Shown piece by piece: positions 6,295 through 60,708 of a DNA stretch of 64,000 nucleotides (position 1 is its first letter; each line of letters begins with the position of its first letter). A program made the position numbers and the translations under genes. Source of the stretch: Cycas panzhihuaensis (taxonomy: Eukaryota > Plantae > Cycadophyta); the NCBI GenBank assembly GCA_023213395.1, contig CM041465.1, positions 249,495,741 to 249,559,740 of the forward strand. The letters run 5' to 3'. Under the pieces are notes generated by a model that was not told the DNA's origin, did not search any database, and saw nothing but the letters and a program-made list of their open reading frames with translations.

Positions 6295-6692
6295 TGTTAG
6301 ATTCCAACATGGAAAGCATTCAACACCAAAGACAATCAACACAATCAATGAACAAAGCAAAGCTTGTATTAATCCAATATAAGCAAGATTACATTAAAAC
6401 ACTCATGCATCATAGACTCAACATAAGTCTAAATGATGACCTGATTACATACCCTACCTCAACTACCTTTATATACAACATAGGTGGTAGAACATACAAG
6501 AGATGAGACGCATGTGGGACAAATACCTCTAACCTAGCCAATGACATTTTACCAACTAATTAACTAATGACCTTCTAACTTTCCACACAATATTATTATA
6601 AGGTATGACCTCTAGACCTTAATACTTAGGACTATGACTATTGACTCTAAGACACACTTAGACACATATACATTAAATATTATATTCTAACA
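6295..6692 (-). repeat. 3' LTR (398 bp) of non-autonomous element copy A
   Basis: TGTTAG...CTAACA termini; adjacent to reverse-complement PPT (AAACATTAAGGGGTGA on the minus strand). Confidence 0.9.
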
Positions 6693-6896
6693 TCACCCCT
6701 TAATGTTTAATGTCATGACCATAAGTATATTGATTACCAAGAACATTATGACACCTACTTCTAAGGACTAACTGACATAAGACTTTGACTTGAATAATTG
6801 TTTGAATTTCCAATGCCTGAGTCTTGGAATTTATCTAAAGATAATGTCATAAGCTTTGTCTTCAACCGAAATGCTGTAAAATCTGTATGATGTGTG

Positions 6897-8297
6897 TTAT
6901 GTCGCCTCTTGTTTCTTGTCTGATGATTCTTCTTGTGTATTCAGGTGTAGGTGTGGTTTTCCTGGATCAAATATGATTACATGTGATTTCAACTCCATGA
7001 AGAGAGTAGACTCCTTCTTGTTTGTCTCCAAGTCTGCCAGGATGATTAACTTCTCAAGCCAATGATCACTTCCTTGAAAGGAAAGGAGCAACAGTGATCC
7101 CTTTCCTAACTTCACCTGTTCAGATACATGTCTAGAACTAACAAGATGCTTTGTTCTCTCCATATTATCCAAAAAATTCTTTGTACCAAATATGATGAGA
7201 ATTTCCATAATGACTAGATGCACATATTTCCTTATTATGGCTACACAAAGATGGAACCTCACTTTAACATGATTTAATCTCATGGTTAAGTAGCCTACCC
7301 AAAACAAACAGTGATCTTGATGAACAAGATTTTGATCAAATGAAATTCCAATTATGTTTTGTCTTATTTTGCATGAATCTTCTGTGGTCATTGCAGGGTA
7401 TGCAAACATTATTTGGATTCTTTTGAAAATAAGAATTGAAAATGCCACCGAATTGAATGTGATCATAGAGAGTCTCATGTATGTGCAAATTACTGTATGT
7501 CCTGACATCATTTGAACCCTCGCAACAAATTTGTCATCACAAATTAAGGTAATATTGCCCATATCTTCTGTTAAGGCACCTGTGTCTCCATGAAGTATTA
7601 CCTGTAAAGGTTGGCGTTCAGATTCTTCAATCTCCACTCTTCTAGAAATTCCCAATGTAGGCTTTCCTGTCAACTTGGTGAGGCTCAAGACATTTGGTGA
7701 ATTCAAATCTTCATTATCTTCATCAAATTTCGAGCAAAGATCATCAAACTCTTTTCCAGAGATAGGTTTATGCAACCTTTCATTCACTTTATGAATATCA
7801 GTTGAGTCAATGTGCGGACTAATCTTACTAGAATCAGGCTGATTTTTCGGTTTCCTCTTCAGATTCTTCTTTTGGTTCTTTGTCCTCCTAATATTCTTCT
7901 ACATTTCTTCAGGACCCTTTTCATTTACTTCTACTAACAGATTCTAGGCCTTTTCAGCTGAGTCAATATTTTGAAGTGTTTGGATAAGAAAATGGTATGA
8001 AGGATGAAGGTTTTCCTTGTTGAAAGTTCTAACCATTACATCAATGGCTACTATGTTTTTCTTCTTGAAGGCTACCTCCCCTTCTTCATTAATTGAAACA
8101 ATTCCAAGAACAATTTTCCATAATCCTTTAATCCTAAAAACGTCTTCTATTTTAATTTTCCAAAATCGAAACTTAATTCCAACATATTTTGGCAAAACTA
8201 TGTTGGTGCCTGTTACCCAAAAATCTTTTTTCTCTGCTGCAAAGGTAATGACTTCACTTAGCTCCATATTGTATGGTTGAATTGAGCAAGAGAACAT
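6897..8297 (-). pseudogene. ORF-X copy A: Copia Gag N-terminal-like domain fused to an unknown region of about 300 aa
   Basis: ORFs 7944-8297 and 6897-7787 are in one frame, separated only by point stops; FRFWKIKIEDVFRIKGLWKIV...SAEKA*NLL resembles the Copia Gag N-terminus; in-frame homologue at 45138-46778. Confidence 0.75.
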
Positions 8298-9089
8298 TAC
8301 CCAAATTTTATGACTTCATAGCCATGATGAGTCAAATATCACATATACTTTTCCCTATTGTCAATTAATGAATCTCTAACCCAAAACTTGCAATTACATG
8401 CCCATTCACCACATATATAAACTCCTCGCATTACCCTTGAGATGTTACTTCATCACCAAAAATAAAGTCACATCCATTAACTTACCAAAGGTAATTTTGA
8501 TCTTTAATCTAAAAATAAATAGGTATAAGGAGTAAGTTGATATATCAAAACTTAAGAACTCAAAATATTTCAATATGTTAATTCCCTATATCCATGTCCA
8601 GGACTCGAACACCCTTATTTAATTTAATTTAATTTCAAATTTATCTCCTTAAAATAATCAAACTCATTTTGGGTCCGCCAAGCTAACCAAGACTTACGAG
8701 TTTGACTTAGATTCTTCTCCTGTAGTTCAACACGATCGACACTTAACATTCACCACAGCTCCTTTTTATTTTCGCCTGCTGACCACGATCTTTGTGTGCC
8801 TAGGCAAGACCTCCCTCTGCAACTGTTGCCTCTCCTTCAGGGATTTCTCTACGGGCTCCTTTGTTGGGGCACAACGATTAGATCAACAGAACAAAATCGA
8901 GGACGAGCGACTTCAAACCCACAGTCTCCACTTTTATGCATGGAGATCACGCCTACTCCTCATGACCTATAGCTGCCATCACTATCGTCGTGCCTCAGTC
9001 TCCTTTGATGAGCTTAGGCGAGAACCCTGAGTGGAAGCACATCCACTTGCCAGGGAGAGGAGTTTCATGTGCATCTGCAACACCTTCCG

Positions 9090-9372
9090 AAAGAGTTATG
9101 AACGTTCCTCCTTTCTTCAGAATATATAGAGTAGAATGCTTGATGGGCAACGAAACGGTTCCCATCTCAAGCAATGGATCTGTGGCGTCAAGGGACATGA
9201 CGTTGGATGCCGACACAGGCGTTTTCGTTCGGTTCTATCTTCCTCGCATTAAAAACTCTAGAATTAGGGTTCCACTAGTGTTATACATTCATGGACGGAG
9301 CTTTCGTATCGAATCAGCGGCATCCCCAACATACCATAACTATCTAAACAAAATGACGAAAGAGGCGAGGTC
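9090..9372 (+). pseudogene. N-terminal fragment of a plant carboxylesterase (CXE/GID1-like alpha/beta hydrolase)
   Basis: PPFFRIY..RVECLMGNETVP..VASRDMTLDADTGVFVRFYLP..VPLVLYIHGRSFRIESAASPTYHNYLNKM matches the CXE N-terminus, with the HGG motif altered to HGR; no GxSxG half. Confidence 0.85.
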
Positions 9373-9426
9373 ATCAAGAGCGGTTGCAGATTGCATTGTT
9401 GGCCCTCAACGATCAGCACTTGGCAT

Positions 9427-23526: not shown

Positions 23527-24553
23527 TATAATGTTCTTCACCTCGAGATCATTGGGTCCCTCAAACATCAATTCTCTCATCCTCATATTCTTCACCCCTA
23601 GTTCAATAGGTCCTTTGAACATCAATCAATCCTTGTTATTGGGTTCCTTTTACATCCCATCATTTACAAATAAGAGCTAAGCATTACACTATTGATAATT
23701 GTTACCAAAAGTACAACAACATCATTATTTATGCGGTTATATAAATTAAACTATGGTCACCTTGCATTACCTTAGAATTTGTATGCTAGTTAGAGCACAT
23801 CTCATCACGTTTTTCTTCACTATGAGAATGAAGTCTATTTAAGGATGTGACCGCCCAAAGTTTTGCATGTAGTCATAGGGGGAGAGAGTTGTGATCCTGA
23901 AATGTAGGTGGTTGAAGCAAAGGCAACACAACAACTAGACAAGTTTTTTCATCCTAGTCAAGTTGAGTTTTTTCTCATTTACAGGTAGGATTGAATGATA
24001 GTGGTAGCAAATGAATTGGCTTATAATTATGCATAAGCTAGTAATGATGAGCTGTGTATCTAAGGGATGTCCTAGCAATTGGTGGGCATAGTGGCTAGTT
24101 ACTTATGTGTCTCGGTGTATGGTTGTGTCTTATTTAGATTTCACTCTAATAATAACGATGAACTATGTATTTGAGGGACATCCTAACAACTAGCTGTTAC
24201 AACAAGTAATTACCCATGTGTTCTAGTGGATAGTCCTGTCCTTTTATAGACTTCATTCTCATAGTGAAAAAAAGAGTGATGGGTTGTGCTCTAACTAGTG
24301 TATATTCTAAAGTATATAGAGTGACCATAGTTTAATTTGTAAGGCCTCCTAAACAATGATGTAGTTGGGTTCTTGGTAATGATTGTTAGTAGTGTTATGT
24401 TTAGTTTTGATTTGTAAACAATGGGATGTACGAGGAATCTAATATTAATGATAGATTAATATTTTAGGGGCCTAGTGATCCAATGGTGAAGAACATGAGG
24501 ATGATAGAATTGATGTTAAAGGAACCTAATGATCAGTGGTGAAGAATGCTATA
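23527..24553. repeat. Long imperfect inverted repeat (arms about 23527-23850 and 24231-24553)
   Basis: For example TTCACTATGAGAATGAAGTCTAT (about 23816) pairs exactly with ATAGACTTCATTCTCATAGTGAA (about 24246); arms are collinear in reverse over about 320 bp. Confidence 0.85.
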
Positions 24554-36165: not shown

Positions 36166-37089
36166 TCCTTCCCATGAGAATGACTAATGGAGAAATCAAG
36201 AAAGTTGGAGATGGCTATTTTGTACCTGGGCTAAGAAAGAATCTTCTCTTAGTCTCTCAAATTACAAAAAGCAGTTTAAAGTTGAATTTGATGATGGCAT
36301 GTGTCTTGTTAGAGACAAAATCTAAAAGTAATTACTAAGGGAAAGGAAGAAAACGACCTTTATAGATTCATGGTCACTCCTATTCTATAAGCATTGGTTG
36401 TGAAAAATCGAAGTTTTATAAATGAAACTTGGCATTCAAGGTATTGGCATTTGTGTTACCAAAATCTAGTTTAGTTGAGAAAACAAAACATGGTAAACAA
36501 TTTGCCTAACATCAAAGAGAATAAAGAGATATGCAAAGGATGCATGCTTGGGAAGTGACATAGGAACAAATTCCCATAAGCCTCATGGAGAGCTGTGAGC
36601 AAATTGGAAATTGTTCATAACAATCTATCCTTCCCATGAGAATGACTAATGGAGAAATCAAGAAAGTTGGAGATGGCCATTTTGTAACTGGGCTAAGAAA
36701 GAATCTTCTCTTAGTCTCTCAAATTACAAAAAGCAGCTTAAAGTTGAATTTGATGATGGCATGTGTCTTGTTAGAGACAAAATCTAAAAGTAATTACTAA
36801 GGGAAAGGAAGAAAACGACCTTTATAGATTCATGGTCACTCCTATTCTATAAGCATTGGTTGTGAAAAATTTAAGTTTTATAAATGAAACTTGGCATTCA
36901 AGGTATTGGCATTTGTGTTACCAAAATCTAGTTTAGTTGAGAAAACAAAACATGGTAAACAGTTTGCCTAACATCAAAGAGAATAAAGAGATATGCAAAG
37001 GATGCATGCTTGGGAAGTGACATAGGAACAAATTCCCATAAGCCTCATGGAGAGTTGTGAGCAAATTGGAAATTGTTCATAACAATCTA
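36166..37089 (+). repeat. Recent 462-bp tandem duplication inside Copia-4 pol
   Basis: 36166-36627 and 36628-37089 differ at about 7 positions and share all stop codons. Confidence 0.95.
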
Positions 37090-40000
37090 TATGGACCTAT
37101 GAAGAACGCATCTCTTGTAGAACCTGAATACTTCATCACACTCATTGATGACTTAACCGTGAACAATTGGGTGTTCTTCCTCAAAAACAAATTTGATGCC
37201 TTAGCATCTTCAATGATTTTAGAACTTACGTAAAAAAAGGAAGTGGAAAAAACATTTAAATTTCTAGAACTGACAATGAAGGGAAATCACCTCCAATGAT
37301 TTCTTCAAATATTGCAAAGCTCATGAGATTAGGAGACAACTGACAACGACTTATACTTCCCAGTCAAATGGAGTGGCTAAATGGAAAAATAGAACAATCA
37401 AAGAAATGGAAAGGAGAATGATAAAAGGAAATGGGATATTGAATATCTTTTGGGTTGATGTTGTTAAGACAATCGTCTACCTTATTAATAGAAGCCTGAC
37501 AAAGGTTATTGAGGAAAAAACTCCAAAAGAAGTCTAGACCATTAGGAAGCCAAATGTCAATCACCTACAGATATTTAGGAGCACAACATTTGTGCACACT
37601 CCAAAAGAGGAAAGAGCCAAGCTTGATGAGAAAAGCATAAAATGCATCTTTCTAGGCTACAATGAAAAATTCAAAGCCTACAGATGTATCAAATCTAAGA
37701 CAAATGAAGTTATCATAAACATGGATATAATATTTGAAGGAAGATCCACCTTGATTGGAAAACCATCAACAATTAGGGAAGAAGGCATCACAAAACTCTC
37801 GTCCATGGTTGTGGAAAAGGAAGTTCAGATTGAAGATCAACCAAATGAAGAAGAGTCTAAAGAGGAAGAAAATTCACAAAGTGACAATGATCTAGAATCA
37901 ATTGAAGATCTACCACAGGGACAAATTCCCAAATGGAATTTATCGAAGGCAAACAAGGTCCCAAAGTCATCTTAGAAACATTGTTGCACTAAGTTGTACA
38001 TTAAGCATAGACAAACCCATATCCTTTAAAGACACTTGAGGGAACAAGACCTAGGATAAGGCCATGGATGAAGAAATCTCAGTTATCCAAAGAAACACCA
38101 CATGCAAATTAACTCAATTTCCAAAAGACAACAAAGTTGGTGGTTGCAAATGGTTATTCAAAACAAAATTCAGACTAGATGGAACAATAGAAAAGCAAAA
38201 GCTAGATTGTTAGCCAAAGGCTTCATTTGGATAGAAGGAATTGATTATGAAGAAACCTTTGCTCTCATGGCCGAATTGATCACCACATGAACCATAATAG
38301 CCTCAGTTGTTTAATTCACCTGGAAAGCTTATTAGATGGATGCCAAAAGTGCATTTCTAAATGGAGACCTTGAAGAAGAAATCTACATGGACCAATTTCC
38401 AAGGTTCATAAAATGTGGAGAAAAGCATCTTATTTGCAAATTAATGAAAGCTCTATATGGCTTAAAATAAAGTTCGTAGAGCATGGTTTGACAAGATTGA
38501 CTAATATCTATAAAAGGATGGCTTTTACAAGTGTGAATTCAATCGAAGTCTACATCAAAGAAAGACATATGGGTCTCATCACTATTATAGTAGTTTATAT
38601 TGATGACCTCCTTATCATTGGAAGTGATGAAGATACTATCTAAAAGGTAAAAGGAAATTTGATGCAATCTTTTGATATGATAGACATAGGGCTATTCCAC
38701 TACTACCTGGGAGTTGAAGTAACTTAAGAAGAAAGAAGACTATTTCTAACTCATACCAAGTATGCGAAAGAACCGCTACTCAAGTTCAAAATGGTTGATT
38801 GCAAGCCGACCCCCACTCCCATGTAAATTGAGTGCAGACTAACAACAAAAGATTAAGGTCCTGTAGTTGATGAAACATTATATAGGAAATTGGTAGGAAG
38901 TTTGATATATCTCACTTGCACTCATCTTGACATTATGTATGCTGTAGAAATTGTGTCAAGATTCATGAATGCTCTACAAGAAGTTTGTTGGAAAATTGCA
39001 AAAGGAATTTTGAGATACATACATGGAACCTTAGACTTTGGACTTGAATACAACAAAAATTAAACCTTTAGGCTTCTCAGCTTTAGTGATTTAGACCGGG
39101 TCAGAGAATGCAATGATAAGAAATCAACGTTTGTTTATTGCTTCAATCATGGATTAGGGATAGTCTCTTGGAGAAGCAAGAAACATTGCTTGGTTGCACC
39201 CTATCCAACGTAAGTTGAATATAAGGTAGCCATTGGGAGCCACCTACTAATTAGTTTGGCTAAGAAAATTTCTGGAAGATCTAAGGCAAACTCAACATTG
39301 TCCCATAGTGATCAACTGTGACAATCAAAGTGTGATCAAACTAGTTAAGAACATGGTCTTTCATACTGGAACTAAACATATTGAAGTTCATAATCACTTC
39401 ATAAGGGAAAAGATTTAGAACAAATAAATAGAATTGATCTATTGTCGTAGCGAAGACCAACATGTACACATCTTCACTAAACCCCTTGGCAAAGATAAGT
39501 TTCAGTTCTTTAGAGAACAAATCCGGGTAAAAACGAAATAAAATAAACATTATGCGGGGGTGTTAGAAATAATGTTCATTCTAATTGTATATCTCCTATT
39601 TCTATATTTTAGGTGTAATTCTGCTATGTACTATAGACATTCTTTAGTTCATCATTATGAACTCCAACTTTGTTAATAAGTCCCACATGTTAGACAAATG
39701 TCATTCATGCATATTAGTGGCTCTTGTATATATGTCAGTCCTACTTCATGCAATGGATTAACGAGAATTATTTCACTCTCTATGTTTGTGTTGGTATCTT
39801 TGAGTTTTAACATTATAAATACCCCATCTATGTATTTACTTGGACTCGTTTTGGATCTTTATTTGGCTTGTAGCCTTTTGGGTAAGTCCTACTCACAGGA
39901 CTAACTATGGAGGCTTCATTCACTGTTGCAGCCATCTTGTAGTATGAATGATTGTTATCTTGTGAATGATTCAGCTATCATCATATTTGAGCATTGTGCA

Positions 40001-44537: not shown

Positions 44538-44812
44538 CTTATCTATCTATCTATATATGTATTTTTTAATTGATATATATATATATATATGGTTATGGAT
44601 GGATAGATAGATAGATAGATATGCATTTTTATTTTGTATATGTATTGATGTGTGCGTGTATTCTATATATATGTATTTATATTATGTATTTTTATTGACA
44701 TATATGTATTTATGTATTTATTATATATGTATATATATATCTTTGATTCCATATATAAGTGTGCAATTTTCATTTTGTATATATTATGTATTGAATCTTT
44801 TTTTTTTTATAC
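44538..44812. repeat. Compound microsatellite and low-complexity tract (TATC, TA, GATA, TATG, poly-T)
   Basis: Seen directly in the sequence. Confidence 0.85.
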
Positions 44813-45137
44813 ATTTTGTTAGATTTTAACATGGAAGGCATTCAACTCCAATCATAATCAACAAGATCAATAGACAAAGCATGACTTGTATTAGCTCAAC
44901 ATAAGCAGATTACATTAGACACTAATGCACCATAGACTCAACATGAATCCCAATGATGACTTTACATTCATATACTACCTCAACCACCTTTATATACAAC
45001 ATAGGTGGGAGAACATACAAAAGGTGGGACACGTGGGACAATTACCTTTAACTTAACCAATGACACTTTACTAATTAATTAACTAATAACCTTCTAACTT
45101 TCCACATAATATTATTATAAGGTATGACTCCAAGACC

Positions 45138-46778
45138 TTAATACTTAGGACTATGACTATTGACTTTAAGACAACACCTCCCCTTAATGTTTAATGTCAT
45201 GACTACAAGTGTACTGACTATTATGACACCTACTTCTAAGAATTGAGAAGATGAGTGACATAAACTGACACAGACCTTGACTTTGAAGTGTTGATTGAAT
45301 TTCCACTGCCTGAGTCTTGGAACTTTTCTGAAGATGATGTCATAAGCTTTGTCTTCAACCGAAATGCTGTAAAAGCTGTATGTGGTGCATGTTCTGTTAT
45401 CTACTGCTTCTTGTTTCATGACTCATTTTGTGTGTTTCAATTGCAGATGTGATCTTCTTTGATTTTTGTCTCCTAGATTAAATGAGACAACATATAATTT
45501 AAACTCTATGAAGATAAATGAATCTTCCTTGTTTCTCTTGAAGTCTGTTAGGACGATCAACTTTTCGAGCCAATGAGTATTTCTTTGAAAGGAAATGAGG
45601 AACAATGTTTCCTTTCTTAACTCCACCTGTACATGTTTAGAACCCACAAGATACTTTGTCCTTTCTATGTCATCCAAGAAATTCTTTGTGCTAAGTATGA
45701 TGAGAATCTCCATTATGGCTACATACACATATTTCCCAATTATGGCTACACAAAGATGGAACATCACTATGATATGGTTGAATCTTATGGTTAAATAGCC
45801 TACCCAAAACACACAATGATTTTGATGGACAAGATTTTGAACATATGATGTACTAGCTATGCTCTTTCTTCCTTTGAATAGATCTTCTAGAGTCTTTGCA
45901 GGGTATGCAATCACAATTTGGATTCTTTAAAAAATGAGAACCGAAAATGCAACTGAGTTGAATGTAACCATAGAGAGTCTTCTGCATGTGCAAATAACCA
46001 TATGCCCTGAAATCATTTAAACTCTGACAACAAATCTATCAACACAGATTAAGGTAATGCTGCCCATACTTTCTACCAAGGTACCTGCGTCTCCATGGTG
46101 TACCACCTGTAAAAGTTGATCACTTTTGGATCGTGCAATCTCCATTCTAGATGCAAAGTTTCTTGTCAACTTGATGAGACTCAAAGTTTTTGATGAAATC
46201 ATGTCTTTAGATTGCAAATAGTGCTCATCTGTCTTATTTCTAGAAATGGGTTCTTTATCTCCTTTATGAGTGATAGATGAATCTGTATGAGAATTGGTCT
46301 TACTAGAATCAATTTGGTTTTCCCTTTTTGCTTTCCTCTTCAACTTCTTTTTTTGGTTCCTTGTCTTCTTGATAGCCTTCTGCAGTTCTTCAGGACCCTT
46401 TTCATACACTTCCCTCAATACCTTCTACGCATATTTAGTTGAGTCAGTGTTCTGAAGTATGTGGATAAGAAAGTGATATAAATGAGGGAGGTTATTTTTG
46501 TCGAAAGCTACAAGCATCACATCAGTAGCTACTTTGCTATTTTTTCTAAAATTTTCCTCCCCTTCTTCATTAATCTTTGGAGTGCTATCACAAACTATTC
46601 TACTTAACCTTTTAATCCTAAAGACGCATTCCATTTTAATTTTCCAAATTCAAAAATTAACTCCATATTTAGGCAAAACTATATTGGTATCTATTACCCA
46701 AAACTCCTTTTTTTCTGCTACAAAGGTAATAATTTCACTTAACTCCATAATGTATGATTGAGTTGAACACGAAAACAT
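45138..46778 (-). pseudogene. ORF-X copy B (Gag-N-like domain plus unknown region)
   Basis: ORFs 46425-46634, 46017-46418, 45423-45914 and 45138-45419 and the ATG at 46778 are all in one frame; clear amino-acid homology to 6897-8297 (WVGYLT, FHLCVAII, HWLEKLI). Confidence 0.78.
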
Positions 46779-49430
46779 TACTCAAAGATTATGTCTTCAT
46801 AGCCATGTCAAGCCAAGAATCTTTATCAAACAAGTTGCCCCACTGTCAATGAATAAATCTCTAGCCTAATATTTATCTTTCAATTTTGAGTAACCATATA
46901 TAATCATTACTTCATCGTCAACAAATATAAAACAATATTTACTAACTTGAAATATGTGATATTAAGGGCAAAAAATCAAAAGAGCTAAGATGATACACCA
47001 CCTTAATATATCAATATTGATTGACTTAACTTCGAAACAAATTTTAAGATGTGGATTCGACCAACCTTATTCAAATCAATTTGATTTCAACTTTAGGAGA
47101 TACGAGATACATTAGGGATAAAACCCTAACCGAATGAGCGACGACTGATGCTCTGGGAGACCTTGGAGGCGACGATGAATTGCTACTACTACCGCTTGAC
47201 CCAGGTGCTCTATGGTGTTGTTTTGTCACAGATGCTGAGATCAATGTCTTTTAGACAACACCAACGACAACATCGTACTTGATGGTCGAACCAATAAACC
47301 GAGACCCTCGTTTTGTCTTACCCCAAAAAGGAGGTACACCCCTATGCAAAATATACAGTATAACTCAGTGCTGCTTCTGTACCATAGTTATATCGCAAGA
47401 CTTCATGAGCTACATAATATGGACTGCCCACAATATCTTTCATTCAAGCATATCCCTTGTTGCTGTTGACATTTCAACATCTGCAGTTATCAAAGGTGCA
47501 AAATTTGATGATTTTAATCTTGCTACTTCTCATGGTTAGAGCTAATGTTTTCTGACTGATGGATCTCTTCCTGGTCTCTTTGAAGTAGTTGAGTTGCTCA
47601 GGAGCAATTTAGCTAATGCACAAGAATTTGTTGATGAAATGTGGAACATAGCCATTAAGTTAGGGAGTAGCCTGAAGCTCAATTCAGTTGTAGGATCATT
47701 GTATAGTGGTGGTATAGTATCCACGTCAGTGGAAATGACATCTGAATCATCAGGATTGCTAATTAGTAATTCGAGTTATCCAGAAGGGTCATCTGTTAAA
47801 TCTAGGAAGAGAAGCTTTGATGCATCATTTTCCCTTGATCCCAAGCCACTAGTAACATGCTCATTTCTAGTGGTTCTTGCAAGAAAGCACAAGAGTGCTT
47901 CTTGCCCCATGTTCTGGGTCGCAGATTGGATTTTGGAATTCCTTCCCAGTCTTCAAGTGTAACGAATGTAAAGCATAGGGTATCTTTGAATCATTCGAAT
48001 AAGCGCTCTAATGCTTCAGTGGCAAGTGTGGGTGTTCTATCTAAGAATAGATTAGGTGATGGGAAATATGATATTTTGCATTTAAAGGGGCCATATTTAG
48101 ATACACCTCGGACAAGTGACCTAACTAAAGTTGGTCACAATAGAATATTGGATTTTCAAAGTGGTGATTCAGATATAGAGGGCCTAGAAAAGATGGACTG
48201 TGATTACCCAATGATACACCCGTCTATTGAAAATTTCTATGATGGTCTCCTTACCGTTCTAGAGGAACCTCCCTTAGATGAAATTGCAGAGTCTTCTTCA
48301 TAACATATTCCATCTAGTATAAATACAACATTATTTTCGGATGAAAATGCTGAGATTCCACTGCATTCATCATTAGGGCTGAGCATTGTCATCGTCATTC
48401 ACTACGACCGTAACTTTGTACAGGTAACCATAACCCTCAAGGTTGGACCTTCATCTCCTTTGGCAGGTGCTTCAATTATTGGTCGGCTCCCTCTTAATGG
48501 CTCATACATATGCTATGCAGAAGCCTCTTTATATGCAGGGTTGAATGCTACTCCTTTAAGCAGGACGTTGTCCCTTCATCACATAGTCTGGCAAGTTCAA
48601 CTCTACGGTACTACACCAATTTGTGTCAACAACTGGGGGGTTTTCATCCACAGACCTTATTCGAACACACATGCAATATCCTCTTTCTTTCACAGCTTAG
48701 GCGTCTCCTTTATGGTAGAATCTCTTCTATTTAGGGATATCCAACTCTATTTTCACCTGTGCTTTGTTCATTCTCCATGGCATATAACCATCCTCATACA
48801 ACAATCAATAGAGATAACTATCTGTTGTACACCATGAGCAATCACGGAAAAATGCAACTGGGAGACTTCTATTCTCTTGTGGACAGATTTTTGCAAATTA
48901 TTTCCCTTCTTCTATGAGCAGACAACAATTTTTACACAACTATTTCTCTTCTCTTTTTGAGCAAATACTCAACAATCATTAGTCACAACCTTGAAGAATC
49001 AGTATTTCACCCAACACTACTGATTCAGAAAACACTTTCATCACCAGTTTTAGATTTCATGATTGATTTTTCATCCCCCCTTTGAATTTTCAATACAAAC
49101 CCTATGGATAGAAATGTGGCCTTATCTCTCACATTCAAGACAAATTCAACAATCAACAATTTCTTCACATCACCTTTTCATAAAACCCCTGTTTCATACT
49201 CTTTTCCTTATGACAAAAATAGAGGAGCATAGTTACCTGGGAGAGACTCTTACTTGGATTACTATTGGCACACCTTTGAGCAACAATGGACTTGGAACTT
49301 CTCCCCCGCAACTCAATCTTCAACCTGGCAAACGACTTAACAGAGTCTCCTCCTTTCTTACTGGAAACTTGACTAATTTGCACACAATGCCCTTAACTTG
49401 CAACTTGTAGTTACACAGATATGGAAGCCT

Positions 49431-49442
49431 GCTCTGATACCA
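49431..49442 (-). promoter_or_regulatory. Primer-binding site, tRNA-iMet
   Basis: GCTCTGATACCA is the reverse complement of TGGTATCAGAGC and abuts the LTR. Confidence 0.95.
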
Positions 49443-52400
49443 TGTTAGATTTTAACATGGAAGGCATTCAACTATAATCAACAAGATCAATAGACAAAGC
49501 ATGACTTTTATTAACTCAATATAAGCAGATGACATCAGAAACTAATGCACCATAGACTCAACATGAGTCCTAATGATGACTTGACATTCATATACTACCT
49601 CAACCACCTGTATATACAACATAGGTGGGAGAACATACAAGAGGTGGGACACGTGGGACAATTACCTTTAACTTAACCAATGACACTTTACCAACTAATT
49701 AACTAATAACCTTCTAGCTTTGCACACAATATTATTATAAGGTATGACCCTTAGACCTTAATAGTTAGAACTGACTATGGACTTTAAGACATACTTTATT
49801 TTAGATACATATACATTAAACATTATATTCTAACACATTCTACTACCACCTTTTTATTTTCAAATTTTTTATGTTGGTGACATATTGTGGTTGTGTTATT
49901 CCTTGTTGCAGTCCTTTTCAAGCATATGGTGCTTATGATGTTGCCTTGATGGAACTCACTTGAGTTTCTCAATAAGGCCAACACCAAATTGTCCAAAACT
50001 TGAATTTGCGAAAGCCTAAATCAATTAATACATGCATAGCAGAAACCTATGTCCAAAGGATGTGACAAACTCAAGTGAACATAGGTGTTCATACACCTGT
50101 AAATATATTTCTTTTACTATTGAAAGTAACTTCAACAACACTAACAACCCAAGCAACGTATTCCTCAGAGTCAAATATAATTTTAGAACAAATAGCAAAA
50201 GATATAGTATTTTTATTCACCAATTGAACATCTTTTATACATATTCATCTCGATTGAAAAGGAGGCCAACCATACTGCTTTAAATGTGGATTCATTGCCC
50301 AACCAATCGCAATCTTAAAGAGGAAAGCATCCCCAAGCTGGAGCATGTGATATGAATGTCAATGGTACTAGTATTTCACTCTTCATTCCCATCTCCAAGT
50401 ATCATTTTTTATGAAAGACTTCTTTTGGATTACAAATGTGTAATTAGTTGTTGTTGCAATCTTTTAATCATTTCTATAATATCTTTACAAATAGTTGTTG
50501 TTGTAAACTTTTTAATCATTGGTGTAATACTTTTATTTTCAGCTGTAACATCTCGCATCTTCACAATTTACTTATTCTTCATAATAAAATCAGAGACGCT
50601 ATACAACATATGGATCCTTGTTGGATCAATCTTATTAGATTACTTCACTATGACCACACGTGTCCCAAACTACGTAGTGCATAAAGGTAATGGTTGTGTG
50701 TTTCATACCACACAATGTCTGCACGTATGATCATTGGGTCTCATCTATATGAGAAGTGTGTTTCATACCACAACCTACTTAAGTATGAAATGGTAATCCA
50801 TACCATACAAGAATTACCCATAGACAAAATAACTAATGAGGGCTTACTTTGTCTCATATTCTTGCACATAAAATAACCAACAAAGGTTTACTTTGCCCTG
50901 CATGGCTTACTTTCCTTGTGAAAGAAAACATAGAAGGGCTTATTTTGCCTTTATAACAAAAATATCCAAGGGCTCACTTTGCCCTCTTTCAAATTGTAAT
51001 TTAGGACCCATAAAGTAGCCCAATGAGAATAAAACAACAATTCAAACACAAGTTTATAACATGATCTAATAAATGTCCCTTCATGAGATGGTAGTGGTCA
51101 CCAAGAGGATACCAAACCAATTTGGATATTTGTCCTTGAAGCCAATATTTTTAGATTGTGCAAATTTCATACAAGCTGGTTAGTAAATACCAAACTTTGA
51201 CCGATTAAAACTAATATTTCTAGGTGCAAAAAATCTCAAATAGGTTGCTTAACAAATGTCAAATTTTGAATCATCTAACCCAATAATTTTAGGTTGCAAA
51301 AAGCCTTTTACAAGTTGGTTAATAGACCACAAAACCTTGAATATAAAACCAAACTAATATTTCAACATCTTTCCTCCATACAACAACTTATGCTCCTAAA
51401 GAAAACTAGATTTCTTTGTTGAATTATCTTCTGCCAGCCATAGAGGCATACTCCAGTTTTCTACATTCTGTGAGCTCCTCCTCACTTCCAACCTATCTCA
51501 ATTAATTCTTTGTCCCCTTTGTCTCTATTATTCAATCTTTTTCCTTTGCTTTTCTAGAATTGATTCCTTGCTAATAAATGTCATTAATGTTGGGTGTCAG
51601 AAATCTGAGCTATAGTGATTGTAGAGTGCTTTTCATTATTATTGTTCGAAGCGGCTATCATTTATCCATGATATCCAAGTTACTAAGAACATATCCATGT
51701 CATGCGTCTCTTTGATCCTTAATTGTCTAAATGTCTAGGCGCATTTATTGGGACTCCAATGAGGCTAGTCCGATGTGGTTTTGTCAACCAATGAGAAAGT
51801 TGCAAGTGGAATTGTGTAGATTTATCATCCCTCCCTTTGTCTCCACATTTTTGTGGCCCTTTAGGGAATTATTTACTTGCATAGGTTCAGTTGCGCAATT
51901 GCAAAATGCACTCCTTTGTTTTCGTAATTCCACACTTACGCATATTAAGATCCACCTCCCAATGACCATTTGCGAAGCCACGAGGGATCTTTTGCTTAGT
52001 GAGAACTTAACTTGATCATTCACTTCAATCCTTATCTATACTCCATTGCTTGTTGGAGACCTATTCTTTCATTTGATGGAGTGATTTCCTGCAAGTCTTA
52101 TGCCTCTATCAACTAAGCTCTTGAGATGTTATACAGATTTTTGTACCTAGCATCTACCCTTACATTTATTTGGCCCTTTTTCCTTTTTCGGTTCCTCGGT
52201 CTATATGGACCATTTGAGCAATATAATTGGCTTTTGTATTATGTTAGTCATAACAAAATAAAGATTACATCATTCAATGTATTAAAAGAAGAAGGGTCCA
52301 ACACCTTATAACATAATACACAAACAAACTATCCTAATGAATGAAACTAAATGGTGCACCCTCACTCTGCACCCTCACTCCTAGTGGAGCATGGAATAAG

Positions 52401-53619: not shown

Positions 53620-54219
53620 TCATCTTACACTAGAGTACAATTCTCTATCTTTATTTTTAGCATGCATCCAATAGCTCCATCTCAACTTTGTAAGGATATG
53701 CCTCACTCTTGATTTAGAGAAGCGATGTTTTCAGATGTATTTTTAGGATATTTATACAAACCAATTGTTATTTGATTCTCTAGTTAGCTCAATAATTTTT
53801 TATGGAGCAAAGATGTTGGCATTGAGTCTATCCTCGGACTCGAGAGTGCAAATTGTTATGCTTTCTAGGACCATACATCATAAACACACGATTCCTCTTC
53901 AAATGATATAGGTAGAGTTTGGCGCACCACCTCTTCAATTAGGCCATGCTTGGGATTGCTTGGTATTTACATAGGGTCAAGAGTATGGGAGACTCTAGTA
54001 CTAGGAGGGGTAGATGCCCATTTTTGGCGGCTTTTTCTTCACAAGATTTGTCTTGGATGCAATCCAAGTGTTGGTATGCTAAGGTATTAGTTCTATTGTG
54101 AATGATTGGGATTCTTACTGGTTGACTTCGACCCACACAACTCTCATTGGATAACCCCAATTTCAATCTATTCAAGAAAGAGATTAATGAGGCCATAATG
54201 AATGAACTTTATTGGACAT
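53620..54219 (+). mobile_element. Decayed LINE ORF2 C-terminal region (left part, split by the chromovirus)
   Basis: LLFDSLVSSIIFYGAKM (53765-53815) resembles the LF.SLV.P.LLYG.E.W motif downstream of LINE RT; TIPLQMI*VEFGAPP follows. Confidence 0.55.
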
Positions 54220-57200
54220 TGTTATAAATCTTTATTAATTGTTGAAAAGATACCTTCTAAGGGTTACGTCCCTTAATACAACAACAGATACCATGCATTT
54301 ATTTATATGGCCGTTGTTCTGTTGTATGGATATCTGGAGTCTACATCAATAATACTTGTAAACTTTCAAAACTCTCAGCATTATTTGCTCATCTCTCTTA
54401 ATTCTTGAGTTGGGTTCGATACAAGTGGTATCAGAGCATCCTTTCTGGCCTGTGAAGAAAAAAACAAGTATTCAAGATTCTAACCACTGCAATAATGACA
54501 AGCAGCCATTAAACAAGCTTTGCTGGAGATCTAGAGGAATTGAATCTGCCAGACGGGAAAGGACCATATCTTGTTCTCTGTGTACGACAATCTCGTCATA
54601 AACACCAGCAAGCACTCTGATTCGCTTAATTGTTAACATCATCTTCCGTTCCTTGTCACATCACCGCCATATCGCTTTAGCATATATACCATCAATTCTG
54701 CAATCGTTGAAAACACATCTTAACGCACTTATCATCTGTGCATTCATCAATCAACCGTCTTCAGACATCTTTACTTTGTATGTTAGCTTGGGAACTGGTC
54801 CCTTTTGATTGGCCGAGCATTCATTAGTCTTTGTAGTTAACCGTTGCATTACTAAGCAAGATCCGAGGTCTTCGTTGCTATGTCTGCGTGATTACCAGAT
54901 CTGCGTCTGGGTATTTTTCATTGCGTCTTCACCCTCGTTGACCCTGGGTATTTTTCGTTACGTTGCGTCCGTGATTACCAGATCTGCGTCTGGGTATTTT
55001 TGCGTTGCGTCTTCACTAAGTTGCGTCTTCATCTTCATTGCGTCTGCATCTTCACTACGTCGCGTCACGCTTTCACATCTTCATTACGTCGTCCTCTTAA
55101 GTTTTCATTACGTCTTCATTACATCTTCCTCTTAAGTCTTCATTACGTTTCTTTCTTACGTCTTCCTTCTTCAAGTCCGCTTACATTATTTAGGCCGTAC
55201 ATTATTCTTATTAGATATTACTAATATCTATTGAATATTATTAAATATAAGTCATTTACATAGCCGCCAAGATTATTTAACATTATTTATTGCATTCACT
55301 TCAATACATTATTTGTAATAACTAACCTTTATTTGTAATAACTAACCTTTATTTATTAACTAACTTTATTTGTAATAACATTTTGTTACTCCCGATTGAT
55401 TAAATATAACTTTATTTTCACTCTATTAATCATATATCATAAACACTCAATTGTATTACCATATCAATAATCTTTAAGATCTTCATCCAAAATCCTTGAT
55501 TGTCATAACATTGGGTAGACAGTATTGTTAGCTTATGTGAGACATTTAGGCCTTGACTTTTCCTAATTCACGTCCCCATTCAATCTATTAACAATTGTGA
55601 ATAGGGGATAATTGACCAAATTCTCCTTTATCTATCCCTATTATCGATCTTCTCAAATAGGCTTCAGCAATCTGTCAATTTATTTAATTAACTGCTTATT
55701 CTTGGCCAAAAGTTTCGCAAAATTTGATAAGTATTGGAAGCGTGTGACAGTCCTTTTACAAAGCTTCATTCAACTTATGAAATTTATACACAAGTGTAAA
55801 AGAGATTAACAAGAGAAGCAGAGACTTGCATTGGCACACTAAACACGACCGTCAAACAGTGGAATCGTATTTATACGATTATTAAAATAATGAATACTGA
55901 AGACATAGCTGATAATACCATTCAAAAAGAGATCGTCGAACCAATCACTCAGGTAGTCCATAGCGCAGTTCAAACGTTAAATGCCCTTTTAAACCATACT
56001 TTACACCAAATTTTGGATAAACTAACAATCATGGCGACAAGTAGAAAAGAAGATATGATTGTACCTGATTCAGAAGATGAAGCAAATAGTTGTCAAACAC
56101 ATTTCAGACATCAAACGCCAAGAAATCAGTGGGGTCCTCAAATATCTCTCATTAATTTTGAAAACGAGGCTATTAGGAAATATCTTAATGAATACCGGAA
56201 TTTAATCCCTGAAGAACAAAAGATAGTGGGTTTTCAGGCATACTTTAATTGCTTACAGAGCATTCAAACACAAAAAGAAAAAGTTAGAAAAAATTACTAT
56301 ACAACGTTTCAGTATAGAACAAAAGTCGCATGAGCCAAGAGTATGGATTCAACAGATGGAAAACTACTTTCGTTTAATGGAGATTGAGCAAGTAGAGCAA
56401 GTCCCGTTAGCCACCCTCCACACCCTCCACATGGATGGAATAGCATGTGAATGGTGGCAGTGTTTAGAACGAACCTCTTTTCGGATTCAACTTCCAACCT
56501 GGAAAGAATTTATACGCTTATTCATTGAACGGTTTTGAGACTGTATCTAATTGTGATTATTATTGTGAATTACGAAGATTAAAACAAACTGGTTCTGTGG
56601 AAGAATATAGTGCTACGTTCACGAGACTAAGCTATGTGTTAGAAGATATTCCGACCAATCGACTTATCCAGTTATATATAGATGGTCTGATAACATAAAT
56701 CCAGGCTGATGTTCAAATTCAAGAGCCTCGGGATCTGAATAAGGCCATATAATTAGCCAAAATACAAGAAGGAAAGATTAATGAATTAAGGAAGGTAAGA
56801 ACAAAACCTTATATTCCTTCGCATGCTCGTTCTAATCCTCCTTCAACTATACGACCTAGTTTTGTATCCAACAGAGTTACTCGGCCAGTTAAACTGTTAC
56901 TTCAAAGAACAAGAGCTAAGCAAGAAGAACTACGAAAAAATAATCTTTGTTTCAGGTGTGCCGAAAAATGGACACCTAATCATAAATGTCAGAAAAATCA
57001 ACTATACACTATTGAATATCTCCGGTAGCCGAAGATGAGGAAATTGAAGAAGAAGGGGGCACCGAATGTGACCAAGGAAACATTGAAAATCATGAGTATC
57101 AATATAACCAGGAGGAAGACACCTTAAAAATGTCATTCTCAGCTATGAGTGGATTGACAAGATCTGACACACTTAAACTACGAGGATTTATTAAAAATCA

Positions 57201-60200
57201 AGCTATTACGATTTTGATCGATCCAGGAAGTACTCATAATTTTATTGATAGAATATCAGCTCAACAATTAAAATTATTTCCATCTAGAACAACACCTTTT
57301 CAAGTAAGTGTTGGAGGGCGACAGGTTATATCTGGGCAAGGAATGATGGAGAACCTTAAAATCTCAATTGGGGACGTTACTCTCAAAGAAAATTTTTACG
57401 TATTAGATGTTGGTGGAGTAGATGTTGTTCTGGGAAGTGAATGGTTACGAACCTTGGGAACTTTTGAGATGAATCTTAAAGAATTATTTATGAGATATAA
57501 GAAAGATGGAAGAATTATCACCCTTCAAGGGGAAAGACCTGGAAATAGCCAACTGATATCATGTAAAAAAATGGAAAAATTAATCAAGAAGGGTCATTGA
57601 GGTATGATGGCTCAATTTTTTTTGATCCATTCAGAAATTAAACCAACTGCACAAGAAAATGAATTACAAAGGCTCATCCAAAGAAAGATAAAGAAGAAGT
57701 TTTTCAAAATATTCCGGTAATTACCACCGACAGAGGATGTGAACATCAAATCGAATTGGAAGGTGCACTAATCCGATTGTTATCCTACCTATAAACAACC
57801 ACATCATTATCGGAATGAGATTGAAAAGATCGTACAAGAATTATTAGATATAGGAGCAATAACTCCTAGTAAAAGTCCGTTTGCAGCACCAATAATTTTA
57901 GTAAGAAAAAAAGATGGATTTTACCGTATGTGTATAGATTATTGAGCATTAAATAAAGTTACAATAAAAAATAAATTTCCGATACCAAGAATCGATGAAT
58001 TATTAGACGAATTACATGGAGCAGAATACCTTTCTAAAATCGATTTAAAATCCGGCTATCATCAAATTCGCATTAAACCGGAAGATACATACAAAATAGC
58101 TTTCAGTACACACTATGGTCATTATGAGTTCAAGGTAATGCCCTTTGGCTTAACCAATGCACCAGCCACATTCCAAGTTATAATGAATGAAGTTCTAAAA
58201 CCTTTCTTACGGAAGCTTGTCTTAGTCTTCTTTGACGACATATTAATATTCAGTAAACAATGGGAAGAACACCTAAATCATCTCGACCAAGCACTGAACA
58301 CCTTAAAGAAACATAAATTCTATGCGAATAAATCAAAATGTTATTTTGGAATGAAAGAAATAGAATATCTGGGTCATCTTATATCAAAAGAAGGAATTAG
58401 AGCTGACCTCAGAAAAGTTAAAGCAATTCTAGAATGGCCGATACCTAAAAATATCACGAAGCTCCGAGGATTTCTGGGTTTAACAGGATATTACCGACGT
58501 TTTGTGAAAAATTATGCACAAAGAACAATTGTTTTAACTTGTTTATTAAAAAAGGATTCTTTTCAATGGAATGAAGAAGCAACAAAATGTTTCGAACAAA
58601 TTAAGCAAATAATGATCTAGTTACCGATACTTACATTACCTGATTTTTCTAAAATCTTTATAATAGAATGTGATGCATCAGGCACGGGAATCGGTGCAGT
58701 ACTGATACAAGAAGGCAAACCCATTGCATTTGAAAGTAGGAAGCTAAACAACCGGGAAATCTTCAAGTCAACTTATGATAAAGAAATGCTGGCCATTATA
58801 CACGCTCTAGTTAAATGGCCAAGATTCCGCTTTCAGAGCAAATTTATAGTTAAGATAGATCATAATAGTCTACAATATTTACTAAAACAAAAGAGTTATC
58901 CATTGAACAACAAAAATGGATAAGTAAAATTCAGGCATTTGATTTCGACATAACATATAACAAAGGAAAAAATAATGTGGTAGCTGATGCTTTGTCACGG
59001 AAAGATGAAGAGAATACAGAACCTCAACTAAAGGCTATCTCAATGATAGAGCCAGTATGGATAATGGATTTACAATCGGAGTATGTGAAAAATCCTGACA
59101 TTCAACAACTCATTTAAAGAATTCAACAAGGAAAAGAAGACAAATTTGAATGGAGAAATGATATTATATGGTATAAAGGACGAATATTTTTAGATTCAAA
59201 CTCAGCTTTCCGTAACAAGATATTAAACGAAGCCCATGTAGTACCGGCTGCAGGACATGAAGGATTTTATAAAACATATCTGCGAATTAAACAGTCATTT
59301 TTCTGGAAAGGAATGAAAAAGGATATAATGAAATTTGTAGCTAAATGTATAGTATGCCAAGTCAATAAATATGAACGTATTGCTACTCCTGGTCTGCTCC
59401 GGCCTCTTCCTATTCCGCAACAAAAATGGGAAAGTATTAGCATGGATTTTATCACAGGTTTACCAAAATCAGAAGGGAAAGATGCTATATATGTGGTTGT
59501 GGATCATTTAACAAAGTTTGCTCATTTTATATCCATACAATCTAACTACAAAGCTCAGCAGTTAGTTGAAGTATTTATCAAAGAAATTCACAAGTTACAT
59601 GGCTTTCCAAAGACTATTGTTAGTGACAGAGATCCTAAATTTTTAAGTCATTTCTGGCAAGAAATGTTTCGACAAGTAGGTACAAAATTAAATATGAGTA
59701 CCAGTTATCATCCGCAAACAGATGGACAAACTGAAGCTATTAACAAATGTTTAGAGAGTTATTTACAAAATTATGTAACAGATAAACAACATTTGTGGGT
59801 CAAGTGGTTACACTTAGCTGAAGCATGGTATAATTCTTCTTACCATTCGTCCATTAAAATGACCCCTTATCAAGCATTATATGGATACCAACCAACTCAA
59901 TTAAAAGATTGGGTCCAAACGGATAATAAAGTTCCAGCAATTAATGACTATATCCAAGAGTCATATAACATAATTCAAATACTAAAGCGACATTTAGAAG
60001 AAGCAAGGAATCGTATGAAACAACAAGTTGATAAAAATCGAACTGAAAGAATTCTTGAAGTTAGCGACTGGGTCTATGTGAGGCTGCAACCATACAAGCA
60101 AGCATCATTAAAAAAATTCTCAAAAACAGAAATTAAGTCCTCGCTTTTATGGTCCTTTTCGGGTTCAACAAAAATTGCAAGATAGCTTATGCTTTAGAGC

Positions 60201-60708
60201 TCCCAACCTCAAAATTACACAATGTATTTCATGTATCATGTCTTAAAAAGAAAATTGGAGATCATGTGCAGGTACAAACATACTTACCTCTCCTAGATGA
60301 AGAAGGCAAATTAATCTCATTACCAGAAGCTATCCTTGAAGTTCGAGAACGCCGATTACAGTCAAAATCTATTCAAGAATATTTGATCAAATGGAAACAA
60401 TTGCGTATAGAAAACGCTTCTTGGGAATCCTCTGATTTTATCAAGCTTCATCCTGACTTGAGACACGAGAGTTTCGTGGGCGAAACATCTTGAGAGGGAG
60501 GAATTGTTATAAATCTTTATTAATTGTTGAAAAGATACCTTCTAAGGGTTACGTCCCTTAATACAACAACAGATACCATGCATCTATTTATATGGCCGTT
60601 GTTCTGTTGTATGGATATCTGGAATCTACATCAATAATACTTGTAAACTTTCAAAACTCTCAGCATTATTTGCTCATCTCTCTTAATTCTTGAGTTGGGT
60701 TCGATACA
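54220..60708 (+). mobile_element. Full-length chromoviral Ty3/Gypsy (Reina-like size, short LTRs)
   Basis: 204-bp LTRs at 54220-54423 and 60505-60708 with 2 differences; PBS TGGTATCAGAGC at 54426-54437; PPT GAGAGGGAGGAA at 60492-60503; TSD GACAT/GAGAT; order gag-PR-RT-RH-IN-chromodomain. Confidence 0.97.
55890..60493 (+). pseudogene. Chromovirus gag-pol pseudogene with C-terminal chromodomain
   Basis: LIDPGSTHNF (PR); MPFGLTNAPATF and FFDDIL (RT); ECDASG (RH); ISMDFITGLP, VSDRDP, HPQTDGQTE (IN); YGPF; PEAIL..EYLIKWK..ASWE (chromodomain). Confidence 0.95.

What the first reader, a model, noticed from the sequence alone, without database searches (positions are those of the whole stretch)
45138..46860. 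ORF-X stays in frame in two diverged copies despite several indels
Seen in sequence: copy B holds one frame from 46778 to 45138, and copy A from 8297 to at least 6897. Both are broken only by point stops, mostly of the TGG>TAG, CAA>TAA and CGA>TGA decay type. By-eye alignment needs about six indels between the copies, and the frame is preserved across all of them. Examples: KRKPKNQ/KRKAKRENQ, HKVNERLHKP/HKGDKEP, RHVSEQV/KHVQV. By contrast the autonomous Copia copies here are full of frameshifts. The N-terminus resembles Copia Gag-N; the hydrophobic, Cys/His/Trp-containing C-terminal part is not a domain I recognise. Inference: a roughly 500-aa element-encoded protein was under selection, possibly affecting helper particle assembly or RNA packaging.
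Basis: partly seen in the sequence, partly recalled or inferred. Interest (0 to 1): 0.8.

Follow-up and report, generated by a model that had tools for sequence, protein, structure and literature searches.

The report
Half-capsid orphan protein of parasitic retrotransposon
An abundant plant jumping gene with no copying enzymes of its own carries one long gene, conserved by selection but now broken in both copies here, that fuses the front half of a Copia capsid protein to a domain of no known family, and this protein likely helped the element ride in the particles of its enzyme-bearing relatives.

Summary
ORF-X lies in a 5.0-kb LTR element (44817-49835, minus strand; PBS, PPT, 5-bp TSD, no pol) and in a 5'-truncated second copy. 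In frame-blind DNA alignments, 11 of 13 internal indels are multiples of three, against about 4 of 22 in non-coding pairs. dN/dS is 0.47-0.67 against permutation nulls of 0.70-0.96 (p 0.003-0.007), and it is lowest in this frame.

Corrections:
- Copy A has a ~17-codon out-of-frame patch.
- B's end at 45138 comes from an LTR deletion.
- Only half the stops are transition-type.
- The contrast with autonomous Copia copies more likely reflects insertion age than selection.

The family is high-copy in three differently labelled organisms. Nine unnamed homologues (31-64% identity) keep the frame. The N-terminus matches only the Copia capsid N-terminal domain; no CTD or zinc knuckle is detectable. 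A basic segment and a ~220-aa hydrophobic orphan core follow; nothing matched the core in Pfam, PDB or PHROGs, and AlphaFold failed. Best reading: a non-autonomous Copia derivative like TR-GAG or wheat Quinta, whose protein probably tags helper particles. The function is untested.

The parts
44817..49835 (-). Complete non-autonomous LTR element, copy B (5,019 bp)
   Evidence: LTR pair, PBS, PPT, TSD GAATG (49836-49840) / AAATG (44812-44816), 1 mismatch. No pol match in any of its six frames.
49443..49835 (-). 5' LTR of B (TG...CA)
49431..49442 (-). Primer binding site directly after the 5' LTR (the initiator-Met tRNA label is recalled); the same motif with at most 1 mismatch follows other LTRs of the window
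47273..48837 (+). Antisense ORF-like cargo in B (two overlapping frames, few stops), unidentified
   Evidence: no Pfam match at cut-off and no PDB match below E 0.6
46830..47130 (-). AT-rich (28.5% GC) leader shared weakly with copy A, beginning at a splice-donor-like site next to a 48%-GC block; read as an intron by inference only
46789..46806 (-). Five-codon upstream ORF, at the same distance from ORF-X in both copies (A: 8308-8325)
45177..46778 (-). ORF-X copy B, 5 internal stops; the second Met (46748) lines up with the first residue of two distant homologues and is the likelier start
46383..46664 (-). Copia capsid N-terminal-domain-like region (B aa 39-132)
   Evidence: Copia polyprotein profile positions 14-105; Drosophila Copia capsid 11-185 = positions 12-193; NTD = residues 1-90 (PMC11835246)
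46323..46370 (-). Lys/Arg-rich segment (B aa 137-152), a candidate RNA-binding or nuclear-import signal
   Evidence: present in 5 of 6 aligned proteins that span it
45459..46121 (-). Orphan hydrophobic core (B aa ~220-440; A 6963-7607)
   Evidence: dN/dS 0.43-0.59 vs null 0.74-0.95, p ~0.01; homologues P0003, P0004, P0005, P0009
45186..45242 (-). C-terminal hydrophobic segment (19-aa Kyte-Doolittle mean 2.2 in B, 2.5 in A)
45177..45185 (-). Polypurine tract, overlapped by the last ORF-X codons
44817..45176 (-). 3' LTR of B, lacking about 40 bases near its start; K2P distance to the 5' LTR 0.066 over 349 sites
6693..8297 (-). ORF-X copy A, 5 internal stops, out-of-frame patch at about 6890-6940
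6295..6692 (-). 3' LTR of copy A (83-85% identical to B's LTRs); no 5' LTR for A in the window
9086..9412 (+). N-terminal fragment of a plant CXE carboxylesterase, antisense and head-to-head to ORF-X A; not shown to lie inside the element
   Evidence: PDB 6rs4 E 1e-10, 2o7r E 7e-7

Best explanation
ORF-X is the one conserved gene of a high-copy, pol-less Copia-derived LTR element; it encodes a Copia capsid N-terminal domain, a basic segment and an orphan hydrophobic domain, and it likely works as an adaptor that joins particles built by an autonomous Copia helper and would favour packaging of the element's own RNA. Shown: the element structure, the lack of pol, selection on this frame, the family's abundance, homology to the capsid NTD only, and that both window copies are dead. 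Inferred, step by step: (1) the protein cannot build a shell alone, because no CTD is detectable and CTD-CTD contacts are proposed to lock Copia and Ty1 shells; (2) the NTD would enter the capsomer centre, where Copia NTDs sit; (3) the basic segment would stand in for the missing zinc-knuckle nucleocapsid; (4) the orphan domain would anchor the complex to a membrane or host factor. I put a real selected protein at about 0.9 and this particular role at about 0.35.
For: Element anatomy. 11 of 13 indels are 3n vs about 4 of 22 in non-coding pairs, Fisher p 2e-4. dN/dS 0.47/0.67 vs null 0.70/0.96, p 0.003/0.007; 4 new stops vs 15 expected. This frame has the lowest dN/dS of the six and only 1 stop shared by both copies, vs 12-32 in the others. 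That shared stop is a minority state in family contigs: 86%, 81% and 57% of depth read otherwise in three runs. Nine homologues at 31-64% identity align in this frame. DUF4219 E 2e-4 in 2 of 11 members and Retrotran_gag_2 E 0.007 in 1. A Copia profile hits P0007 at 6e-8 over positions 13-101 of a capsid spanning 12-193. NTD = residues 1-90, at the capsomer centre (PMC11835246, passages). The PPT and LTR start resemble those of the window's autonomous Copia copies. Precedent: wheat Quinta encodes Gag plus a DUF and uses a helper (PMC11302176, passages).
Against: No binding, expression or structure evidence; AlphaFold gave pLDDT 30-32 twice. dN/dS is high for a structural protein and rests on one pair of decayed copies. 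The listed family-versus-B differences show no third-position excess (12/14/14 and 9/11/12 by codon position; 72 listed places of several hundred). The core shows no beta or helical amphipathic period above shuffles. The Gag match of the window copies is weak on its own (E 2e-4 to 4e-2 in small searches) and no Gag family matched either copy in Pfam. ORF-X starts 2.6 kb after the PBS, behind an upstream ORF, so how it is translated is unexplained. No helper was identified: LTR similarity to the window's Copia LTRs is not significant (p 0.08-0.28).
Confidence: 0.35

Rival explanations
1. ORF-X is a nuclear accessory protein: the basic segment is an import signal, the orphan domain acts on transcription, silencing or integration, and the Gag part is a vestige.
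For: The basic segment is kept in 5 of 6 proteins that span it. Extra ORFs such as Grande gene23 are nuclear and have their own promoter (PMC7264820). ORF-X has its own leader, far from the 5' LTR.
Against: The Gag-N part is itself under selection (p ~0.03) and keeps the N/F-x-x-W-x-I-K motif in 4 of 4 proteins that span it. The core is very hydrophobic for a nuclear factor.
Confidence: 0.2
2. Selection is mainly for an open frame, not for the protein: translation up to the PPT protects the RNA from nonsense-mediated decay or couples it to packaging. ORF-X is then a worn gag-pol deletion product whose tail still echoes the RNase H end.
For: The ORF ends at the PPT, where Copia pol ends. Indels are 3n even in the linker and tail, where dN/dS equals the null. 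The tail scores above shuffles against 18 RNase H ends (p 0.012-0.036, three non-independent tails).
Against: Core dN/dS is below the null (p ~0.01) and homologues at 40-54% identity show conservative replacements. Profile tests of RNase H or any pol domain fail (hhalign P 0.5-0.7; HMM scores within shuffles), and other windows of copy A score as high as its tail.
Confidence: 0.2
3. ORF-X is a dominant-negative capsid fragment that poisons or throttles helper particle assembly, as Ty1 p22 does, so limiting copy number or diverting enzymes.
For: It holds one capsid domain only. Ty1 p22 is a one-domain Gag fragment that blocks assembly (PMC12724554, passages).
Against: p22 is the CTD and acts at a CTD interface; ORF-X has the NTD. 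An element that needs the helper and reached high copy number gains little from blocking it.
Confidence: 0.12
4. ORF-X is an env-like membrane protein made from a spliced message, with the Gag piece linking particles to membranes or plasmodesmata.
For: 3' position next to the PPT, two hydrophobic segments in both copies and an intron-like leader. Plant env-like ORFs have transmembrane segments and can be spliced (PMC7264820).
Against: No conserved glycosylation sequon. The internal hydrophobic segment contains charged residues. The tail segment shows no measurable selection. No env or fusion-protein match.
Confidence: 0.1
5. The open frame is an artefact of composition, or the shadow of a gene on the other strand.
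For: The core is rich in I, V, F, L, H and M and poor in A and P, as antisense readings often are (own knowledge). One antisense frame has core dN/dS 0.63.
Against: That frame has 7 stops shared by both copies in the core, and the in-register antisense frame has dN/dS 0.97. No antisense frame matches Pfam or the Copia profile. An ancient antisense origin of the core stays possible.
Confidence: 0.03

Closest known systems
RLG_Quinta of wheat (PMC11302176, passages seen)
   Same: Non-autonomous LTR element whose single ORF is Gag plus a domain of unknown function, mobilised by an autonomous partner.
   Different: Quinta is Gypsy/centromeric with a clear Gag and LTRs shared with a known helper. 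Here the Gag is Copia-type, only the NTD is detectable, no helper is identified, and the ORF lies 2.6 kb from the PBS. DUF1 was not available for comparison.
TR-GAG elements (PMC4350172, abstract and passages seen)
   Same: LTRs, PBS, PPT, 5-bp TSD, one Gag-related ORF, no PR/IN/RT/RH.
   Different: TR-GAGs are under 4 kb, and TR-GAG1 carries a full UBN2 domain plus a zinc knuckle. This element is 5.0 kb, lacks a detectable CTD and CCHC motif, adds about 300 aa of orphan sequence, and carries unrelated upstream sequence.
Additional ORFs of plant LTR elements: env-like, Grande gene23, Retand (PMC7264820, parts 1-2 of 3 read)
   Same: Family-wide, orphan, near the 3' LTR, function unknown.
   Different: Those accompany gag-pol; ORF-X replaces it and is fused to a capsid domain.
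Ty1 p22 (PMC12724554, passages seen)
   Same: A single capsid domain expected to act on full-length Gag.
   Different: p22 is the CTD, made from an autonomous element, and restricts it. ORF-X is NTD-like with a long extension.

Membership tests
TR-GAG | LTRs (TG...CA), PBS, PPT, 5-bp TSD | tested here: met
   copy B; TSD has 1 mismatch
TR-GAG | Length under 4 kb | tested here: not met
   5,019 bp (44817-49835)
TR-GAG | Gag HMM hit (UBN2 or Retrotrans_gag, E < 1e-5) | tested here: not met
   best Retrotran_gag_2 E 0.0066 and DUF4219 E 2e-4, in homologues only; NTD homology shown with a custom profile
TR-GAG | No protease, integrase, RT or RNase H | tested here: met
TR-GAG | Two or more copies | tested here: met
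   two in the window; 6,391-6,516 contigs laid per run in three DNA runs
Autonomous Ty1/Copia | pol with IN-RT-RH order | tested here: not met
   no pol in copy B
Autonomous Ty1/Copia | Copia-type Gag | tested here: met
   N-terminal half only
Autonomous Ty1/Copia | Capsid CTD and CCHC nucleocapsid | tested here: not met
   no CCHC in the 6 proteins scanned; profile matches end near position 105, apart from one weak extension to 145 in P0011
Quinta-like Gag+DUF elements | One ORF of Gag plus a domain of unknown function, no pol | tested here: met
Quinta-like Gag+DUF elements | LTR sequence shared with an identified autonomous partner | tested here: inconclusive
   only termini, PBS and PPT resemble the window's Copia copies; LTR p 0.08-0.28; no genome held
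env-like additional ORF | Lies between pol and the 3' LTR | tested here: not met
   no pol; the ORF begins with a Gag domain
env-like additional ORF | Transmembrane segment(s) | tested here: inconclusive
   two hydropathy peaks of 2.0-2.5 in both copies; no topology predictor run
env-like additional ORF | Spliced message | not testable with these tools
   no raw RNA reads were listed
Copia RNase H remnant | Detectable, colinear RNase H homology | tested here: inconclusive
   tail p 0.012-0.036 but hhalign P 0.5 and HMM scores within shuffles

The most novel reading that the evidence does not exclude
This is a new way for a non-autonomous retrotransposon to exploit its helper. Instead of supplying a whole Gag, as TR-GAG and Quinta do, it makes a capsid-NTD-tagged adaptor with a new, perhaps de novo, domain that docks into helper shells. 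The fixed 3' module (ORF-X, PPT, LTR) travels with exchangeable host-derived sequence placed head-to-head upstream, which would make the family a vehicle for gene fragments in very large plant genomes.
Probability: 0.25. Interest if true: 0.75.

Novelty: new variant of a known kind. Interest (0 to 1): 0.5.

Why it matters
How non-autonomous LTR elements get their RNA into helper particles is poorly understood. A family that kept only half a capsid, fused to an orphan domain, under selection across subfamilies as distant as 31-64% identity offers a concrete protein to test. It also adds a protein family that Pfam, PDB and PHROGs do not hold, in an abundant repeat that domain-based annotation would call non-coding.

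Tried and rejected
- Composition or antisense artefact: rejected.
- Family-wide stop or readthrough at codon 118, suggested by the stop both copies share: rejected, it is a minority state.
- Core as RNase H or protease beta-barrel, suggested by eye: not supported by a profile of 28 Copia proteins or 19 RNase H regions. Only a weak tail echo remains; DNA-level tests gave p 0.03, 0.21, 0.95 and 0.97.
- Core as a captured host domain: all 9 hits among 1.84 billion representatives are unnamed Logan ORFs. Word searches found 0 hits (lengths 293-935) and 3 already known (lengths 93-506); longer forms of the core were not searched.
- Pfam, PDB and PHROGs for the core: nothing meaningful.
- AlphaFold on 2- and 6-row alignments: pLDDT 31.6 and 30.2, so no fold search was run.
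- ESM Atlas gave no answer.
- No related loci in metagenome or viral contigs; no genome held.
- Expression: no RNA holder listed. Run X24 is only guessed to be RNA and shows nothing about transcription. The RAD-seq run laid no reads.
- Earlier scan notes by sequence and place: none.
- Literature: six searches listed no paper on this family. Most subscription journals and the TE libraries (Repbase, REXdb, GyDB; names recalled) could not be searched, no supplements were read, and the family may already be there under a name.
Full report
Observation. Copy B reads in one minus-strand frame from 46778 to 45138 and copy A from 8297 to 6693, each with 5 internal stops. The other frames hold 20-59 stops, and 31-33 per frame are expected from each copy's trinucleotides (p ~1e-11). 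The copies are 74% identical in DNA over 2.1 kb and 61% in protein. Frame-blind alignment gives 13 internal gaps, 11 of them multiples of three (at gap-open -24). The other two, of 1 and 2 nt, put about 6940-6890 of copy A out of frame relative to B, P0003 and P0005. Looser penalties split gaps (13 of 33 are 3n at the loosest), yet 94-97% of columns stay in phase. Non-coding repeat pairs of the window gave 4 of 22 gaps of 3n; I left out end gaps and the third LTR pair, and one event is probably counted twice. Fisher p is 2e-4.

Selection. Nei-Gojobori dN/dS over 517 codons is 0.47 (bootstrap 0.36-0.62), or 0.67 (0.53-0.84) with transitions weighted threefold. A permutation that keeps the substitution spectrum gives 0.70 and 0.96 (p 0.003, 0.007) and 15 new stops against 4 seen. 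By segment, Gag-N gives p ~0.03, the core p ~0.01, the linker p 0.4 and the tail p 0.5. This frame has the lowest ratio of the six and one shared stop, against 12-32 in the others. That shared stop, at codon 118, is a minority state in family contigs (86%, 81% and 57% of depth read otherwise). Against this: the 72 listed family-versus-B differences are flat across codon positions. That is expected for B's private decay, but it gives no support among the polymorphic places either. Post-insertion decay pushes the pairwise ratio towards 1, so the active-phase value was probably lower (inference). The autonomous Copia copies show about 5, 3 and 6 frame switches, which likely reflects their age, not selection on ORF-X.

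The element. Copy B is complete: 5' LTR 49835-49443, PBS from 49442, PPT 45185-45177, 3' LTR to 44817, and a 5-bp TSD with one mismatch. Its LTRs differ by K2P 0.066; recalled gymnosperm rates would make that roughly 15-45 million years. The 3' LTR lacks about 40 bases, which is why B's frame runs on to 45138; in A the stop lies at the PPT/LTR junction. No pol domain is found in any frame. Copy A has no 5' LTR in the window and abuts a cut Gypsy pol. About 6,400-6,500 contigs lay on ORF-X in each of three DNA runs labelled as three organisms, a third of them under 90% alike: a large, old family, though this is not a copy number. The nearest named relative of the window's Copia RNase H is a Gb_ gene model, which I recall as Ginkgo (58%), so a gymnosperm-like host is likely.

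The protein. A profile search of 1.84 billion representatives found 9 proteins, all unnamed singletons from Logan contigs, 31-64% identical to copy A and in the same frame. The N-terminal ones match DUF4219 (E 2e-4, 2 of 11 members) and Retrotran_gag_2 (E 0.007, 1 member), and a profile of 28 Copia proteins (P0007, E 6e-8). On a seven-sequence Copia profile, four ORF-X proteins cover positions 4-105 and one extends weakly to 145. The Drosophila Copia capsid, residues 11-185, covers positions 12-193, and its NTD is residues 1-90, forming the capsomer centre (PMC11835246, passages). ORF-X therefore keeps about the NTD. No CTD or CCHC knuckle is detectable. A Lys/Arg-rich segment follows (5 of 6 spanning proteins), then an indel-rich linker, a ~220-aa hydrophobic core and a hydrophobic C-terminus. 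The core matched nothing in Pfam, PDB or PHROGs, shows no amphipathic period and did not fold (pLDDT 30-32). By eye the tail recalls the RNase H end, and it scores above shuffles (p 0.012-0.036), but profile tests fail. I leave it as a possible vestige.

Upstream. The copies stay weakly alike for about 350 bases above the start, through a five-codon upstream ORF and an AT-rich stretch that begins at a splice-donor-like site. Beyond that they differ. A has an antisense N-terminal fragment of a CXE carboxylesterase (E 1e-10); B has a 1.5-kb antisense ORF-like stretch with no match. Both point away from ORF-X and begin 0.5-0.8 kb from it. Gene-fragment capture by TEs is common in gymnosperms (PMC13477047, passages). 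Two copies, one of them truncated, cannot show that cargo is exchanged family-wide.

How it likely works. The element needs a helper for RT, integrase and a complete capsid (follows from the missing pol and CTD). I favour an adaptor: the NTD joins helper capsomers, the basic segment holds the element's RNA, and the orphan domain anchors the complex (0.35; all three steps inferred). Rivals are a nuclear accessory factor (0.2), selection for an open frame only (0.2), a p22-like inhibitor (0.12; PMC12724554, passages), an env-like membrane protein (0.1; PMC7264820) and an artefact (0.03).

Comparison. It works like TR-GAG (PMC4350172, abstract and passages) and wheat Quinta (Gag plus DUF1; PMC11302176, passages), but it fails the TR-GAG length and Gag-HMM criteria and is not filed there. 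A recent survey treats such categories as a continuum of non-autonomous elements (PMC13570524, passages). The bioRxiv Copia tomography paper (10.1101/2024.02.21.581285, passages) gave no domain boundary. Two unchecked notes from this scan describe pol-less LTR elements with orphan or KH proteins in other kingdoms; they are analogies, not support. Six literature searches listed nothing on this family; TE libraries and supplements were not seen.

Verdict. A real, selected, now dead ORF. It is a new variant of the Gag-bearing non-autonomous LTR elements, notable for an NTD-only capsid fused to an orphan domain. Its function is open. Interest 0.5.

Noticed in passing
window 47273-48837 (+): About 1.5 kb of nearly open antisense reading inside element B (one frame change, three stops), unidentified; part of it resembles a PWI-like motif by eye only (recalled).
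   Followed up: partly
window 9086-9412 (+): N-terminal third of a plant CXE carboxylesterase between ORF-X copy A and a Gypsy pol cut off in its RNase H region.
   Followed up: partly
window 8340-8697 and 46830-47130 (-): An AT-rich, intron-like leader starting at GT donor-like sites next to a GC-rich block in both copies; similarity between the copies ends about there.
   Followed up: partly
window 8308-8325 and 46789-46806 (-): A five-codon upstream ORF conserved in both copies, out of frame with ORF-X.
   Followed up: no
window 130-792 and 5316-5943: LTRs of an autonomous Copia copy contain a 51-bp tandem array and an 87-bp duplication.
   Followed up: no
window 36166-37090: A 462-bp tandem duplication, 98% identical, inside a decayed Copia copy at the integrase start; recent, or an assembly error.
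   Followed up: no
window 23534-24546: Inverted repeat arms of about 310 bp, 78% alike, around a 400-bp core; foldback or MITE-like.
   Followed up: no
window 54218-60708: A Gypsy element with 99% identical 206-bp LTR stretches, apparently the youngest insertion in the window.
   Followed up: no
window 29233-29981: A 144-bp tandem repeat array within a minus-strand Gypsy remnant.
   Followed up: no
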